Sequence record: MK373774.1
Source: Escherichia phage vB_EcoM_WFL6982
Reading direction: 5' to 3' (one strand)
DNA length: 64,000 nucleotides
The position numbers and the translations under genes were made by a program. The notes beneath the pieces were generated by a model. It made no database searches, was not told the origin of the DNA, and worked only from the letters and a program-made list of their open reading frames with translations. Positions 126 to 5,587 of this stretch are shown here, piece by piece. Numbering within the stretch: position 1 is the stretch's first letter; every line of letters starts with the position of its first letter.

Positions 126-614
126 TCATATATACGCTTTCCAAGTTCCTGTTTTAAATGTTGAGATTACGCGTTTCGCGCGATTAGGTGTCTGACGATA
201 CCATTTAGATTGGGCTAGATTTACTGCCGCTTCATCCCAACGTTTCTGTTGAAGCATACGAAGAGAATTAGTAAAACCGGCGACTCCTGCTACACCCATT
301 TGGAAGACCATATTGACCAATGCACACCGACGAACTGCATCTAAAGAATCATATACCGGTTTAAGTTTAGCATTACCCAAGATTCCGCGGACGGCTTTAT
401 CAACGTCTTCATTAAATAGCTTTTCAGCCTCATCAAGGGTAATTGTACCGTTGCATTTACGACCGATCATTCTGTCAAGTTCAGCTTTAGCTACGGCTAA
501 AGACGGGTTCTTTGTTACTAAATGGCCTATGCCAATAGTCCAAAAGCCTTCGGTGTCTTTGTATAAAGTCAGTCTAAGACCTTCGTCATTACGAAGCATT
601 TCAAATATATTCAT
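126..614 (-). CDS. e: T4-type lysozyme (endolysin)
   Basis: Translation [21 protein letters not shown] matches T4 lysozyme nearly end to end; GGAGG SD upstream of ATG at 614. Confidence 0.95.
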
Positions 615-648
615 AATACCTCCCACGTTTATAGGAGGTATTTATTAC

Positions 649-1077
649 TTATAGGAGTGTAGTGAGCACCTTATATAATGATTTGCCCATTACATATTCC
701 CATTGAGAAGGTTTAATTAAAGCGAATGCATCAAATTCAGGAATCTGTCGTCCGTCTGGGAATGTATGATAGGAATTACAAACACTGTTTCTGAATTGCT
801 CGTGCTCTACAGGGATGGTATATAGGAACAGATGAATATTCTTATTGTCTGAGTAATGATGTTCACCTAGGTCTTTCAGGAAGGCAGGGTCATATTGTGT
901 AAACCCAGTTTCTTCTTCGCATTCACGAAGAGCTTCAAGGCCACACATAGGCTCGATACCAGTAATGTGAACTTGATTAATCTGATACTCTACATCTTCT
1001 AACTGAGCGAAAACATAACGACGTTCTGCTGCACAACCAGGTTTAGCTTTACCGAAACGTTTATTCAAAGTAGTCAT
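649..1077 (-). CDS. nudE: Nudix hydrolase
   Basis: Position immediately downstream of e as in T4; start MTTLNKR preceded by GGAGA; assigned mainly by synteny. Confidence 0.7.
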   Translation of the reverse strand: MTTLNKRFGKAKPGCAAERRYVFAQLEDVEYQINQVHITGIEPMCGLEALRECEEETGFTQYDPAFLKDLGEHHYSDNKNIHLFLYTIPVEHEQFRNSVCNSYHTFPDGRQIPEFDAFALIKPSQWEYVMGKSLYKVLTTLL

Positions 1078-1099
1078 TTTTATATCTCCATTCACTCAT

Positions 1100-1150
1100 T
1101 TGTTTTGATAGGTCTATAGTATCAACAACTACAGACCTTGTAAACTGTTT
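1100..1150 (-). promoter_or_regulatory. T4-type early promoter (GTTTAC -35, TACTAT -10) with inverted repeat
   Basis: Minus strand GTTTAC-N18-TACTAT followed by CCTATCAA box; one of eight copies of the same architecture. Confidence 0.55.
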
Positions 1151-1157
1151 TGTGAAA

Positions 1158-2114
1158 TTATTTGAAAGGTTTTACCATATGAAAGTTTTGTTTGAAACGC
1201 TTGACGTAATCGTCGTGTCCTAAGCTTTGGTACATACTTACTACTTTGCTATAATTTTCCCAAGCGAACTCACGGAACCATCCTGATGTGATTGATGTAC
1301 AGACCTTTTCAAGGGCCATCATAAAACTATCACGTGGATGGATTTTAAAGTCGTTAGGAATCTGTGAACGTTCAAGAGCTAATACACAAGCTTCTTCATA
1401 TACACCGGCTAATTTAACCATTTCTGGTAATGATTCGAACTTCTCGCGTGATGTCATAACTTCTGAGCCTTCTTTCATATAAAACTTATAAGCAGGCTGG
1501 TCAGTTAGTGCAATGGCTTCATGGATAGTATCATGGTCATACGTATAGATGTCATCTTTAAAGAACGCACTTTTAGAAGTGTCAAGAACTGGGTGAGCAT
1601 AATTCAAGGTTTCTTTCTGGCGTTTCAGCATAATTTCAGTAAGTTCATCGTTCAGTGTAACACCTTTACCACGAAGATACTGAATATGGTTCATAGTCTT
1701 TAAAAAGAATGGATTATTTTTCTTGAAACGATGAGACATCTTAATTGCAAGACATATCTCAGGAGTTGCCCAGTAAAACCCGTTCAAACGGTCTTTAGTC
1801 AAATTTTTCTTGGCGTATTTTAAAAGGTCATAAGAAGACGTGAAATCTTCAGGAGTGAGTTCACCGACTAATTCACGGACATTAGTGATTGCCGGAACAA
1901 TATATGCTTCAAAATGAGTTTCGCGTCCATTATGGAAGCATTTGAAAACTTGGACATCAGGGTTATCTTGGTGAACATATACACCCATCATTTGATTTTT
2001 GAATGTATTCCAAGAACCTTGGTCCGCAATAAAGTCCCAATCACTATTTTTAATAGCGCTAGAATCAATAAGACCGTGATAGTGAAGTGCACGAGAACCA
2101 ATAACTAACATCAT
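1158..2114 (-). CDS. hypothetical protein, possible minimal nucleotidyltransferase fold
   Basis: 318-aa ORF with GAGGAAA SD; N-terminal IGSRAL...SDWDFIAD resembles the hG[GS]...DxD polymerase-beta-like motif (spacing longer than typical). Confidence 0.6.
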   Translation of the reverse strand: MMLVIGSRALHYHGLIDSSAIKNSDWDFIADQGSWNTFKNQMMGVYVHQDNPDVQVFKCFHNGRETHFEAYIVPAITNVRELVGELTPEDFTSSYDLLKYAKKNLTKDRLNGFYWATPEICLAIKMSHRFKKNNPFFLKTMNHIQYLRGKGVTLNDELTEIMLKRQKETLNYAHPVLDTSKSAFFKDDIYTYDHDTIHEAIALTDQPAYKFYMKEGSEVMTSREKFESLPEMVKLAGVYEEACVLALERSQIPNDFKIHPRDSFMMALEKVCTSITSGWFREFAWENYSKVVSMYQSLGHDDYVKRFKQNFHMVKPFK

Positions 2115-2142: not shown

Positions 2143-2382
2143 TTAAATTTCACGACATGCGATATTATATTCATCCCAGAGGTCATCATGTGAAGCCTCT
2201 ACCAATGGAACGATTGTACCGTTTATGTCTTCATTATAAGGGCAAATTGTACAGTGCGCATCTTCGAATCGGATGCCTTTGTGTTCAGATTTTTTATAAC
2301 GCATATCGAATATCTTTGCAAACTTTTCACGAGTAATGGTTTTACCAACCACTTTGGTTCCGATACTTTCGTAATAAATCAT
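2143..2382 (-). CDS. hypothetical protein
   Basis: ORF with GGAG SD before MIYYES start; early promoter immediately upstream. Confidence 0.5.
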   Translation of the reverse strand: MIYYESIGTKVVGKTITREKFAKIFDMRYKKSEHKGIRFEDAHCTICPYNEDINGTIVPLVEASHDDLWDEYNIACREI

Positions 2383-2397
2383 TGTGGACTCCATTTG

Positions 2398-2445
2398 GTT
2401 TGATAGGACTACTATAACATAGCCCTATCTTGTTGTAAACTGTTT
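2398..2445 (-). promoter_or_regulatory. T4-type early promoter with inverted repeat
   Basis: Minus strand GTTTAC-N18-TATAGT-AGTCCTATCAA. Confidence 0.55.
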
Positions 2446-2642
2446 TAGCAAGAATAACTAGATGATACCCAGCCTTGAACAGTGATACTATTGTGGGATA
2501 ATGAGATCGCGTCCTGGAGATTCAGACCTGCGTTATCTTCAATCCATAATGTAACTTCTTCGCGTTCTTCTGTTGCAATTTGGAACAGGTTTTCCAGAGC
2601 AGCTACTGTCGTACGTACAGCACAATCTAATTCACGAGACAT
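2445..2642 (-). CDS. small protein, C-terminal GWVSSSxxC family member
   Basis: 65 aa; C-terminus QGWVSSSYSC shared with two neighbouring ORFs. Confidence 0.5.
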   Translation of the reverse strand: MSRELDCAVRTTVAALENLFQIATEEREEVTLWIEDNAGLNLQDAISLSHNSITVQGWVSSSYSC

Positions 2643-2651
2643 ATTGTTTCC

Positions 2652-2924
2652 TTAGCAAGTGTGAGAAGATGCGACCCAACCACCAGTTTCGAGGCTCAGG
2701 TTGTAGTCGTATTGGTAAACGTCAGCCCATTCAGCATAGCCGTTTTTTGTACAACGTTCAAGATCGGCTTTAAGATGTCCGGGTGAATGATAGGTTCCAC
2801 CCATACCATAAGCTGGATACAAGACGAATGTTGTGTTTTGTTTATCAGCAATTTCTTTGGCAGCCTCAATAGCTGCATAAATTTTTGCTACAGCTTCAGC
2901 CAGTTCGGTTTGTTCTTTAGACAT
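2652..2924 (-). CDS. small protein, C-terminal GWVSSSxxC family member
   Basis: 90 aa; KEIADK..YGMGGTYHSPG and C-terminal GGWVASSHTC paralogous to 2934-3239. Confidence 0.55.
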   Translation of the reverse strand: MSKEQTELAEAVAKIYAAIEAAKEIADKQNTTFVLYPAYGMGGTYHSPGHLKADLERCTKNGYAEWADVYQYDYNLSLETGGWVASSHTC

Positions 2925-2933
2925 AATGATTCC

Positions 2934-3239
2934 TTAGCACAACGCAGAAGACGAAACCCAAGCACCTTCAGTAATAACGTAACCATTACCTTCACGCTTA
3001 ACATCGCCACCATTATTTTCAATTTCATCTTTCATCCACTGGGATACGATTTCACCCTTAGGATAATAAGTACGACCGCTACCATAATCACCTACAGAAA
3101 ATGATACGGCATATTGGTCTGCGATCTTTGTTGCTTCTTCTTCGATACGTTCAGCTTGATTCAGAAGTTTATAAATTGCATCTGAAGCGGATTTGGCATC
3201 ATTAAACTCTGGTACTTTAATTTCAATAATCTTACTCAT
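2934..3239 (-). CDS. small protein, C-terminal GWVSSSxxC family member
   Basis: 101 aa; TKIADQ..YGSGRTYYPKG and C-terminal GAWVSSSALC. Confidence 0.55.
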   Translation of the reverse strand: MSKIIEIKVPEFNDAKSASDAIYKLLNQAERIEEEATKIADQYAVSFSVGDYGSGRTYYPKGEIVSQWMKDEIENNGGDVKREGNGYVITEGAWVSSSALC

Positions 3240-3595
3240 TTTCTACATTCCTTAATAAAGTTTTCGATTGTTTCATTTTCACGTCTAGCTAGGAGTTCAT
3301 TATAACTAATCATTTGAGAAGCGTAAACCTTTTTATTTTTCTTGTTATGGTTTATAAAATCGTAGTAAAAATAGACTACAGTACAAAAGGATGCGATGGA
3401 TGCAAAGGCTTGGGTATACCGTAAGTCCTGCCATTGGTCTGTGAATCCACCAGTGTTCCCTATAAATCCTAACACAACGCCATCAATAAGAAATCCAACT
3501 AATCCAAAGGCAAATCCCATGCCGGCGCTCATGATAAAAATTAAAATATTCTCACCAAGAGAAGGCCATACGGTTAAGAGTTGAGGCTTTTGCAT
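3236..3595 (-). CDS. small membrane protein
   Basis: Hydrophobic stretch MSAGMGFAFGLVGFLIDGVVLGFIG in the translation; overlaps neighbours by a few nt. Confidence 0.5.
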   Translation of the reverse strand: MQKPQLLTVWPSLGENILIFIMSAGMGFAFGLVGFLIDGVVLGFIGNTGGFTDQWQDLRYTQAFASIASFCTVVYFYYDFINHNKKNKKVYASQMISYNELLARRENETIENFIKECRK

Positions 3596-3933
3596 CTTAT
3601 TTCCTTAACGAATTCCATAGCTTCTTCATATTCATACTTTTTAACAGCTTCATCATACTGAGCTTGGGCTTTTGCGCACTGAACTTTCCACTCGCGAACT
3701 CGAGCTCTGTGATGACGGCCTTGGTGCCAATATCCTGCCCAATTAATAGGCATTAATAAAAATGGTACAATAAGTGGGGCGACGAACATTAATGAAAATG
3801 CTGCATCAGACGATATAACTTTACTAGAATCTAAAACAGCTCCTATAATCATAAAGATTAAAAATGCTAAAGCTAAAATAGGGCCAAATAGTACTTCGTT
3901 TGGGATTAATTTACGTTTGTATTCGTATGCCAA
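3574..3933 (-). CDS. small membrane protein (start uncertain, possibly TTG)
   Basis: Translation has YKRK followed by a hydrophobic helix; first codon in frame is TTG just after a hairpin plus T-tract; no ATG until codon 28. Confidence 0.4.
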   Translation of the reverse strand: MAYEYKRKLIPNEVLFGPILALAFLIFMIIGAVLDSSKVISSDAAFSLMFVAPLIVPFLLMPINWAGYWHQGRHHRARVREWKVQCAKAQAQYDEAVKKYEYEEAMEFVKEIRCKSLNS

Positions 3934-4633: not shown

Positions 4634-4709
4634 TGGTGCCTCTAGAAAGATTTGAACTCTCACCATTAACCTTAGAATGATTATATGCTATCCATTACAC
4701 TATAGAGGC
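4634..4709 (-). tRNA. tRNA-Arg (anticodon TCT)
   Basis: Hand-folded cloverleaf: perfect 7-bp acceptor GCCTCTA/TAGAGGC, T-arm GAGAG-TTCAAAT-CTTTC, anticodon loop ATTCTAA, encoded CCA; 76 nt. Confidence 0.8.
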
Positions 4710-5366
4710 AATTAAATTATTTACAATATCTTCTTTATAAACTTCAGCATAATGAAGTTCATATATTTCCCATCCTAATGATTTTATAATATCATGGCGT
4801 TCTTTATAATAAGGGGCCAAAATCTTTTTCTTAGGATTGGAGTAATGTTGGTTTCCATTAACTTCAATAATAATCTTTTTATCTATTAAAGCAATATCCG
4901 TGCAATACGCTCGGTTTTTAACCGGTTGGTATTCTTCAATAAATGAAATTCCATTTTCTATTAATTTAGATTTCAAAAATTCACAAGGCACAGATTTAAA
5001 TTTTGTATTTTTCTTCCAAGGATGTTTATCGGGGTTTTCATTCAACCATTTTTTCCGAGCATTAGATATTTTTATTCTAGCTTCCTCAGAGTGTTCTCTA
5101 CCTAATGAAGCGGCTGACAATTTTTGTCTAGTCTCTTCCGAAATTACTACAGGAACACCAGTCTTTTTAGATACAACATACTGGTTTAAATTACCTGAAG
5201 CTATACGTGCTTTATTCATTGCTGCAATGGCTGATTTAGAACTTTCTTTATACAATTCCAATTTAGGGTTGGATTTACACCATCTAGTGTGGTTAGCCAT
5301 CCATCCTTTAGGTTTATTAGAAATATCAAATTCCATATTACAATGTTTACAAATGCTCATTACCAA
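4695..5366 (-). CDS. putative homing endonuclease (zinc ribbon, NUMOD3 repeats, Vsr/DUF559-like C-terminal region)
   Basis: N-terminal CKHC..HTRWC; tandem ISEETRQKLSAA and HSEEARIKISNA NUMOD3-like motifs; C-terminal IIEVNGNQH...SLGWEIYEL; sits where segB sits in T4 as I recall. Confidence 0.6.
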   Translation of the reverse strand: MVMSICKHCNMEFDISNKPKGWMANHTRWCKSNPKLELYKESSKSAIAAMNKARIASGNLNQYVVSKKTGVPVVISEETRQKLSAASLGREHSEEARIKISNARKKWLNENPDKHPWKKNTKFKSVPCEFLKSKLIENGISFIEEYQPVKNRAYCTDIALIDKKIIIEVNGNQHYSNPKKKILAPYYKERHDIIKSLGWEIYELHYAEVYKEDIVNNLIASIV

Positions 5367-5434
5367 TTATCTCCTATAAAATATAGGAGTATTTATTATT
5401 TGGATAGAGCACTTAATTTACTTCGTTTAAATTA

Positions 5435-5506
5435 CTGGCGCACTTGGACTCGAACCAAGATAAAGGAGTTAACAGCTCCCCGTAATAACCTTTATACGAT
5501 GCACCA
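5435..5506 (-). tRNA. tRNA-Asn (anticodon GTT)
   Basis: Hand-folded: acceptor TGGTGCA/TGCGCCA, anticodon arm GGGAG-CTGTTAA-CTCCT, T-arm CTTGG-TTCGAGT-CCAAG; 72 nt. Confidence 0.7.
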
Positions 5507-5512
5507 TTTGTT

Positions 5513-5587
5513 TGGTGACCCTGGCTGGTTTCGATCCAGCTACCTATCAGTTATGAGCTGACAGCTCTCCCATTGAGCTACAGGGCC
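5513..5587 (-). tRNA. tRNA with CAT anticodon (Met, or Ile if lysidine-modified)
   Basis: Hand-folded: acceptor GGCCCTG/CAGGGTC, D-arm GCTC..GAGC, anticodon loop CTCATAA, T-arm GCTGG-ATCGAAA-CCAGC, encoded CCA; 75 nt. Confidence 0.75.

What the first reader, a model, noticed from the sequence alone, without database searches (positions are those of the whole stretch)
1158..2114. 318-aa early ORF with a nucleotidyltransferase-like motif next to nudE
The N-terminus IGSRALHYHGLIDSSAIKNSDWDFIAD fits the hG[GS]...DxD signature of polymerase-beta-type nucleotidyltransferases, with a candidate third acidic residue in THFEAYIV. I do not recognise this protein from T4. Nucleotidyltransferases in phage accessory regions are often involved in signalling-nucleotide or nucleic-acid modification.
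Basis: partly seen in the sequence, partly recalled or inferred. Interest (0 to 1): 0.5.

Follow-up and report, generated by a model that had tools for sequence, protein, structure and literature searches.

The report
Phage nucleotidyltransferase paired with Cys-tailed small proteins

Summary
The 318-aa ORF (1158-2114, minus strand) is real. The window is Escherichia phage vB_EcoM_WFK, a Mosigvirus. The protein matches Pfam DUF7277 plus DUF7275.

The nudE adjacency and tRNA proximity are lineage-specific.

The new result is a conserved two-gene module. In 77 of 87 loci from diverse large phages, the gene is preceded on the same strand by 1-4 small acidic proteins ending in GxW[VILM]SSSxxC-stop. 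In the window these lie at 2445-3239. Starting from the small proteins instead, all six look-ups found the enzyme gene just downstream.

My preferred mechanism, which is inferred, is NTP-dependent modification of the tail serines by the enzyme. The main rival is a MenT-like RNA-end transferase regulated by the small proteins. Neither function has been tested.

The parts
1158..2114 (-). 318-aa gene for the DUF7277+DUF7275 enzyme (WFK_00124)
   Evidence: ORF. Pfam DUF7277 at aa 2-101, E 2.8e-27, and DUF7275 at aa 120-305, E 9e-79. PHROG 2141. AF2 model pLDDT 91.7, pTM 0.86.
1812..2111 (-). N-terminal minimal Pol-beta-type nucleotidyltransferase domain (aa 2-101). Catalytic codons: G6-S7 (2094-2099), D25 (2040-2042), D27 (2034-2036), E69 (1908-1910).
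1200..1757 (-). C-terminal all-helical domain (aa 120-305). It holds 48 positions that are at least 90% conserved, including K125, H128, K139, H194-D195, H198, E240-E241, E248-R249, S277-G278 and R281.
2934..3239 (-). 101-aa small acidic protein ending ...GAWVSSSALC-stop (tail-protein paralogue 1)
   Evidence: ORF. PHROG 899. Family HMM E 9e-23.
2652..2924 (-). 90-aa small acidic protein ending ...GGWVASSHTC-stop (tail-protein paralogue 2)
   Evidence: ORF. PHROG 899. Family HMM E 3e-22.
2445..2642 (-). 65-aa small acidic protein ending ...QGWVSSSYSC-stop (tail-protein paralogue 3)
   Evidence: ORF. PHROG 4882. Family HMM E 2e-9.
2143..2394 (-). 83-aa ORF between the tail proteins and the enzyme gene. 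It is lineage-specific and probably not a core part of the module.
   Evidence: PHROG 3723. Its cluster is found only in 14 enteric T4-like loci.
2411..2439 (-). Promoter-like site (TTTACA-17-TATAGT, with TG) upstream of the 83-aa ORF and the enzyme gene
   Evidence: Consensus scan only, not enriched over shuffles.
3299..3327 (-). Promoter-like site (TTTACG-17-TATAAT) upstream of the three tail-protein genes
   Evidence: Consensus scan only.

Best explanation
The ORF encodes an active two-domain enzyme. The N-terminal domain is a minimal polymerase-beta-superfamily nucleotidyltransferase. Its closest structural relatives are the MenT/AbiEii (DUF1814) toxins and small-molecule nucleotidyltransferases. 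The C-terminal domain is a larger, far more conserved helical domain specific to this family. The enzyme is the downstream gene of a phage-restricted module. The other component is one to four paralogous small acidic proteins (median 88 aa, pI about 4.4) whose only universal feature is the extreme C-terminus G-x-W-[VILM]-S-S-S-x-x-C-COOH. Proposed mechanism: the conserved helical domain docks this invariant tail. The D25/D27/E69-Mg2+ centre then uses an NTP to modify a tail serine hydroxyl, most simply by O-nucleotidylylation. The modified small proteins would be the actual effectors during infection. SHOWN: the gene is real, the fold, the conservation of catalytic residues, and the reciprocal gene association. 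INFERRED: that the small proteins are substrates, the chemistry, and the biological effect. About 0.9 confidence that this is a nucleotidyltransferase-fold enzyme, about 0.85 that the two gene families are functionally linked, and about 0.35 for the substrate-modification mechanism as stated.
Against: The closest solved relatives act on tRNA 3' ends or antibiotics, not proteins. Small upstream genes next to MenT-type enzymes are classically antitoxins (PMC10435456). Ten of 87 loci, and the distant actinophage and Vibrio-phage homologues, lack tail proteins. The loci are not phylogenetically independent, so the p-value overstates the significance.
Confidence: 0.35

Rival explanations
1. A MenT/AbiEii-like RNA 3'-end (tRNA) nucleotidyltransferase used for host takeover or RNA repair. 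The small upstream proteins would be its inhibitors, timers or specificity subunits (antitoxin-like). Their tail could act as a pseudo-substrate that plugs the active site.
For: The best structural matches are the MenT1, MenT3 and MenT4 toxins. MenA1 is a small protein encoded upstream of menT1 that blocks the active site (PMC10435456). The gene order, with the small gene first, is typical of toxin-antitoxin pairs. In enteric T4-like phages the gene lies 0.4-7 kb from the tRNA cluster.
Against: Pfam AbiEii does not match: 1 of 150 members at E 0.021, and none for the window protein. tRNA proximity is absent in about 53 of 58 non-enteric loci. Having 1-4 paralogues with an invariant nucleophile-rich tail is unusual for antitoxins, which usually diverge freely. 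No AbiEi/COG5340-type partner is present.
Confidence: 0.25
2. A RiPP-like tail-maturation enzyme. NTP-dependent activation of a tail Ser would be followed by elimination to dehydroalanine. The C-terminal Cys would then attack it (Ser at -3, Cys at 0, an i/i+3 spacing as in lanthionine rings), giving a thioether-cyclised tail. The conserved His/Asp/Glu/Cys residues of the helical domain would do the elimination and cyclisation.
For: The tail has fixed Ser(-5,-4,-3) and a terminal Cys with invariant spacing. Several precursor-like paralogues sit next to one enzyme. The second domain carries invariant H128, H194-D195, H198, E240-E241, E248-R249, and C272 in 145/150.
Against: This rests purely on analogy. 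No known lanthipeptide dehydratase uses this fold. In RiPPs the core peptide is variable and the leader conserved, which is the reverse of what is seen here. No protease or exporter is conserved nearby.
Confidence: 0.1
3. A stand-alone small-molecule nucleotidyltransferase unrelated to the small proteins. It might inactivate a metabolite or antibiotic, act in nucleotide or NAD metabolism, or synthesise a signalling nucleotide.
For: ANT(2'') and LnuA are among the top fold matches. nudE is adjacent in this phage, and NAD-salvage genes lie near a distant Vibrio-phage homologue.
Against: The nudE and NAD contexts are not conserved. There is no NCBIfam, PADLOC or CD-NTase match, and cGAS-like and OAS matches are at noise level. 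This reading leaves the reciprocal association with the tail proteins unexplained.
Confidence: 0.1

Closest known systems
MenT1/MenT3(TglT)/MenT4 and AbiEii (DUF1814 nucleotidyltransferase toxins)
   Different: Sequence identity is 8-11%. The Pfam AbiEii model does not match. There is about 130 aa of additional, highly conserved helical domain with no solved relative. The family is phage-encoded and essentially absent from bacterial genomes: only 8 contigs, all in metagenome-assembled genomes, among 185,579 species genomes. The partners are Cys-tailed acidic proteins, not MenA/AbiEi.
ANT(2'')-Ia (AadB) and LnuA antibiotic nucleotidyltransferases
   Different: No sequence-family match in NCBIfam or Pfam. 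They lack the C-terminal domain and have no partner proteins.
MntA-HepT (MNT-HEPN) type VII toxin-antitoxin system
   Same: A minimal nucleotidyltransferase encoded next to a small partner protein that it covalently (oligo)AMPylates (PMC7641770, PMC11586414). This is the closest mechanistic precedent for the explanation I favour.
   Different: The partner there is a HEPN RNase modified on Tyr. Here there is no HEPN motif or fold match, MNT proteins are not among the listed fold matches, and the gene order and copy number differ.
CitX/MdcG holo-ACP synthases (from my own knowledge, not tested here)
   Same: A nucleotidyl-transfer-type reaction onto a Ser hydroxyl of a small acidic carrier protein.
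   Different: No sequence or fold match was seen here, and the CitG-type partner enzyme is absent. This is an analogy only.
Pfam DUF7277 + DUF7275 / PHROG 2141
   Same: The protein is a full-length member.
   Different: These entries carry no function. A few GenBank records call homologues 'nucleotidyltransferase' (H60, H66, H67). I found no record or paper that mentions the link to the tail proteins.

Membership tests
Polymerase-beta-superfamily nucleotidyltransferases | hG[GS] motif at the start of the first helix | tested here: met
   I5-G6-S7; G6 150/150 and S7 146/150.
Polymerase-beta-superfamily nucleotidyltransferases | [DE]h[DE]h pair on the next strand, plus a third acidic residue on a neighbouring strand | tested here: met
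   D25 148/150 (plus 2 E), D27 150/150, position 69 E 132 and D 16 of 150. These residues lie in predicted strands 26-31 and 64-73.
Polymerase-beta-superfamily nucleotidyltransferases | alpha/beta nucleotidyltransferase fold | tested here: met
Polymerase-beta-superfamily nucleotidyltransferases | Nucleotidyl-transfer activity | not testable with these tools
   Needs biochemistry.
DUF1814 / AbiEii / MenT | Match to the family profile (Pfam PF08843) | tested here: not met
   No hit for the window protein even at E 10. One of 150 relatives hits at E 0.021, below the cutoff.
DUF1814 / AbiEii / MenT | C-terminal motifs III and IV forming the catalytic site (PMC7450476) | tested here: inconclusive
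   K125 (150/150) and position 143 (D in 137/150, H in this phage) have spacing compatible with MenT1 K137 and D152. No residue-level structural alignment was available.
DUF1814 / AbiEii / MenT | Cognate MenA/AbiEi antitoxin and tRNA acceptor-stem extension | not testable with these tools
   No AbiEi-like gene is nearby. Activity was not assayed.
CD-NTase / cGAS-like signalling synthases | Profile or fold match to CD-NTases | tested here: not met
HD phosphohydrolase (considered for the C-terminal domain) | H...HD...D motif on the HD helical fold | tested here: not met
Class II CCA-adding enzyme / poly(A) polymerase | Profile or fold match | tested here: not met
Pfam DUF7277 + DUF7275 | Both domains above the gathering score | tested here: met
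   95.7 and 264.2 bits against a cutoff of 27.

The most novel reading that the evidence does not exclude
The enzyme and the W-x-S-S-S-x-x-Cys-tailed proteins form a new kind of phage protein-maturation system. A nucleotidyltransferase-fold enzyme would chemically rewrite a genetically encoded C-terminal tag. The product could be nucleotide-tagged proteins, or a dehydroalanine/thioether-cyclised tail. This would produce a family of modified small effectors that act on the host early in infection.
Probability: 0.12. Interest if true: 0.85.

Novelty: new variant of a known kind. Interest (0 to 1): 0.6.

Why it matters
The family is large: 1578 clusters at 50% identity and 733 phage records. It spans T4-like phages of enterics, Aeromonas and Acinetobacter, rV5-like and jumbo phages, Pseudomonas and Xanthomonas phages and Myxococcus phage Mx1, yet it is annotated only as two DUFs. 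Showing that it is a conserved enzyme-plus-tagged-partner module turns an anonymous 'hypothetical protein' into a directly testable system, by co-expression and mass spectrometry. If the small proteins are substrates, this would be a new protein modification used by phages. If they are regulators of a MenT-like activity, it would be a phage-borne counterpart of a bacterial toxin-antitoxin or abortive-infection enzyme. Either outcome bears on host takeover and counter-defence, and on annotation of thousands of phage genomes.

Tried and rejected
1. tRNA repair or CCA-adding idea, prompted by the nearby tRNA genes and by Pnk and RNA ligase genes in some loci. tRNAs within 10 kb are seen only in the enteric T4-like lineage (conserved synteny) and in about 5 of 58 other loci, which is roughly the chance level. 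Rejected as a general feature.
2. Link to nudE. Not conserved.
4. Sequence searches of the PDB with the single protein and with profiles found nothing significant.
5. NCBIfam and PADLOC gave nothing.
6. The afdb50 fold library was unavailable.
7. A reverse locus search with the small-protein alignment failed because it had no conserved 7-10-column stretch. I replaced it with a profile protein search plus six context look-ups.
8. Other neighbours (RNR, NinI-like phosphatase, Sir2, Pnk, ligases, Nampt) are lineage-specific.
9. I first thought the same tail sat on many unrelated protein bodies. In fact 134 of 148 fall into one BLAST-linked superfamily even without the tail, so I do not claim this.
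10. Literature searches for the DUFs, the PHROGs, RB69 ORF names and phage MenT-like enzymes returned nothing relevant.

Full report
OBSERVATION

The window is Escherichia phage vB_EcoM_WFK (Mosigvirus), record positions 64001-128000. The ORF at 1158..2114 is on the minus strand and encodes 318 aa. GenBank annotates it as hypothetical protein WFK_00124. Downstream lie nudE (649..1095) and the lysozyme gene e (126..626). Upstream lie small ORFs, and three tRNA genes sit at 4634-5587.

The syntenic T4 locus goes directly from nudE to the unrelated 102-aa e.2. I did not scan the whole T4 genome.

FAMILY

The protein matches Pfam DUF7277 (aa 2-101, E 2.8e-27) and DUF7275 (aa 120-305, E 9e-79), and PHROG 2141, which has no assigned function. 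NCBIfam, PADLOC and PDB sequence searches gave nothing.

Homologues occur in 733 phage records from many genera. An exhaustive profile search found 1578 clusters at 50% identity, and the 150 best hits listed are about 300 aa long.

A scan of one genome for each of 185,579 bacterial and archaeal species found only 8 loci. All are contigs in metagenome-assembled genomes and look like phage DNA. The family is therefore essentially phage-restricted.

IS IT A NUCLEOTIDYLTRANSFERASE?

In 150 representatives, G6 is invariant, S7 is present in 146, D25 in 148 (plus 2 E) and D27 in 150. Position 69 is E in 132 and D in 16.

Foldseek independently ranks MenT1 first with probability 1.0, covering almost the whole 195-aa toxin.

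Pfam scans of all 150 relatives show only stray sub-threshold hits to nucleotidyltransferase families: AbiEii in 1, DUF6036 in 3 and DUF4269 in 3. The fold and catalytic motifs of the Pol-beta superfamily are therefore met, but membership of DUF1814 by sequence is not.

cGAS-like and OAS matches are at noise level.

THE C-TERMINAL DOMAIN

The C-terminal domain is much more conserved than the N-terminal one. It has 48 positions at or above 90% conservation, against 5 in the N-terminal domain. Mean column conservation is 0.61 against 0.30.

Invariant residues include K125, H128, K139, H194-D195, H198, E240-E241, E248-R249, S277-G278 and R281.

By spacing relative to the MenT1 active-site residues D41, K137 and D152 (PMC10435456), K125 and position 143 may correspond to DUF1814 motifs III and IV. 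Position 143 is D in 137 of 150 and H in this phage. This correspondence is an inference.

CONTEXT: WHAT DID NOT HOLD

nudE adjacency is not conserved. Mosigvirus F31 has five extra ORFs between nudE and the gene.

tRNA genes lie within 10 kb in all but one of the enteric T4-like loci, which reflects conserved synteny. Among the other 58 loci this is true in only about five.

No annotated neighbour is shared across lineages.

CONTEXT: WHAT DID HOLD

I clustered the neighbouring ORFs of 87 loci. One family stood out: small proteins that are always upstream on the same strand.

These proteins are acidic (median pI 4.4, median 88 aa) and end in G-x-W-[VILM]-S-S-S-x-x-C followed by the stop codon. 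Each locus carries one to four copies.

An HMM built from them gives 191 hits in the 4-kb upstream same-strand zone and only 1 hit elsewhere. At least one copy is present in 77 of 87 loci.

In the 64-kb window the only three hits are at 2445-2642, 2652-2924 and 2934-3239.

By regex, 172 of 1523 ORFs in the upstream zone carry the tail, against 8 of 12870 elsewhere. The odds ratio is 205. The loci are not independent, so the nominal p of 2e-159 is overstated.

The association is reciprocal:
- A profile search with the small proteins found 206 proteins, none with a Pfam domain or an informative name.
- Six diverse hits were looked up in their contigs. All six lie directly upstream of a PF23940 gene, including in Myxococcus phage Mx1.
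- Genus counts for the 101-aa paralogue track those of the enzyme: Aeromonas 57 versus 59, Enterobacter 34 versus 36, Shigella 17 versus 18. The Escherichia count is lower (196 versus 259). That would not be expected if the several hundred Escherichia records whose DNA matches this region also carried the small protein.
- The eight contigs from metagenome-assembled genomes show the same arrangement in six to seven cases.

The tail is the only universal feature of the small proteins. The YGxGG(T)YY motif in the body occurs in 78 of 148.

Most of the small proteins (134 of 148) still form one BLAST-linked superfamily when the tail is removed.

DISTANT HOMOLOGUES

Gordonia phage Smoothie gp16, Streptomyces phage Circinus gp181 and Vibrio phage K408_0139 are 248-263 aa long. 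They keep GS...DxD, KxSH, HDSIH, EE..ALER and TS..KG.

They lack the tail proteins. Instead, each is followed by one to four paralogues of a different small family with a conserved C-terminal ...K.ITV[YWF]E motif. This hints that working with multi-copy small partners is a general property of the enzyme family.

MECHANISM

Shown:
- a conserved, apparently catalytically competent nucleotidyltransferase
- a second, highly constrained domain
- an obligate-looking genetic partnership with proteins that share a nucleophile-rich C-terminal tag

Inferred, and my preferred reading (about 0.35): the helical domain binds the tail, and the nucleotidyltransferase centre modifies a tail serine using an NTP. 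The precedents are MntA, which AMPylates HepT (PMC7641770, PMC11586414), and Ser phosphorylation in the MenT active site (PMC11375011).

Main rival (about 0.25): a MenT-like RNA 3'-end transferase whose small partners are inhibitors or specificity factors, by analogy with MenA1-MenT1 (PMC10435456).

Less likely: a lanthionine-like tail cyclisation (about 0.1), or a stand-alone small-molecule or signalling enzyme (about 0.1).

NOVELTY AND VERDICT

The nucleotidyltransferase reading is not new in itself. A few GenBank records already use the word, and Pfam holds the two DUFs.

I found no description of the family's function or of the tail-protein module in 8 million papers and preprints.

I rate it a new variant of a known kind, with interest 0.6. 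It is a widespread phage enzyme-partner system that simple co-expression and mass spectrometry could resolve.

Noticed in passing
window 2445-3239 (minus strand): Three tandem paralogous small acidic proteins (65, 90 and 101 aa) all end in W-V-[SA]-S-S-x-x-C-stop. This turned out to be a phage-wide family that is reciprocally linked to the enzyme gene.
   Followed up: yes
L006 4600-5800; L007 4747-7061; L008 4620-4985: In distant homologue loci (Gordonia phage Smoothie, Streptomyces phage Circinus, Vibrio phage K408) the enzyme gene is followed by 1-4 paralogues of a different small protein family. These share ...GG.G.G...F+K.G.Y.SYSGG.YDG...EV.P..K.ITV[YWF]E near the C-terminus.
   Followed up: partly
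window 2143-2394 (minus strand): An 83-aa ORF (PHROG 3723) with an HCTIC motif and a C-terminal Cys sits between the tail proteins and the enzyme gene. It is found only in 14 enteric T4-like loci.
   Followed up: partly
window 1158-1100 region versus L089 1597-3573: The interval between nudE and the enzyme gene is an indel hot spot. Mosigvirus F31 and many relatives carry about 2 kb (five ORFs) there that WFK lacks.
   Followed up: partly
window 3236-3933 (minus strand): Two overlapping 119-aa predicted membrane proteins (PHROG 2330 and 2604) lie just upstream of the tail-protein genes. The first overlaps the 101-aa gene by 4 nt. The homologue of the first is labelled 'sulfurtransferase' in phage F31, which looks like a mis-annotation.
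   Followed up: no
window 4695-5366 (minus strand) and tRNA-Arg 4634-4709: A 223-aa ORF lies between tRNA-Arg and tRNA-Asn, in the position of T4 segB. Its 3' end overlaps the tRNA-Arg gene by about 15 nt.
   Followed up: no
protein residue 143 (window 1686-1688): The position that may correspond to the DUF1814 motif IV Asp is D in 137 of 150 family representatives but H in this phage and its close relatives.
   Followed up: no
database names of homologues (P0009, P0077, P0353): Source annotations appear wrong. An enzyme homologue is called 'prohead assembly scaffold protein' in Klebsiella phage vB_KpnM-VAC36, another enzyme homologue (P0077) is labelled with an H-NS-dependent expression protein name in nr, and a small tail protein is called 'seryl-tRNA synthetase' by JGI.
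   Followed up: no
window 1096-1157 (minus strand): The 62-nt gap before nudE holds a promoter-like site (TTTACA-17-TACTAT, 1144..1116) that overlaps an inverted repeat (GGTCT...AGACC).
   Followed up: no
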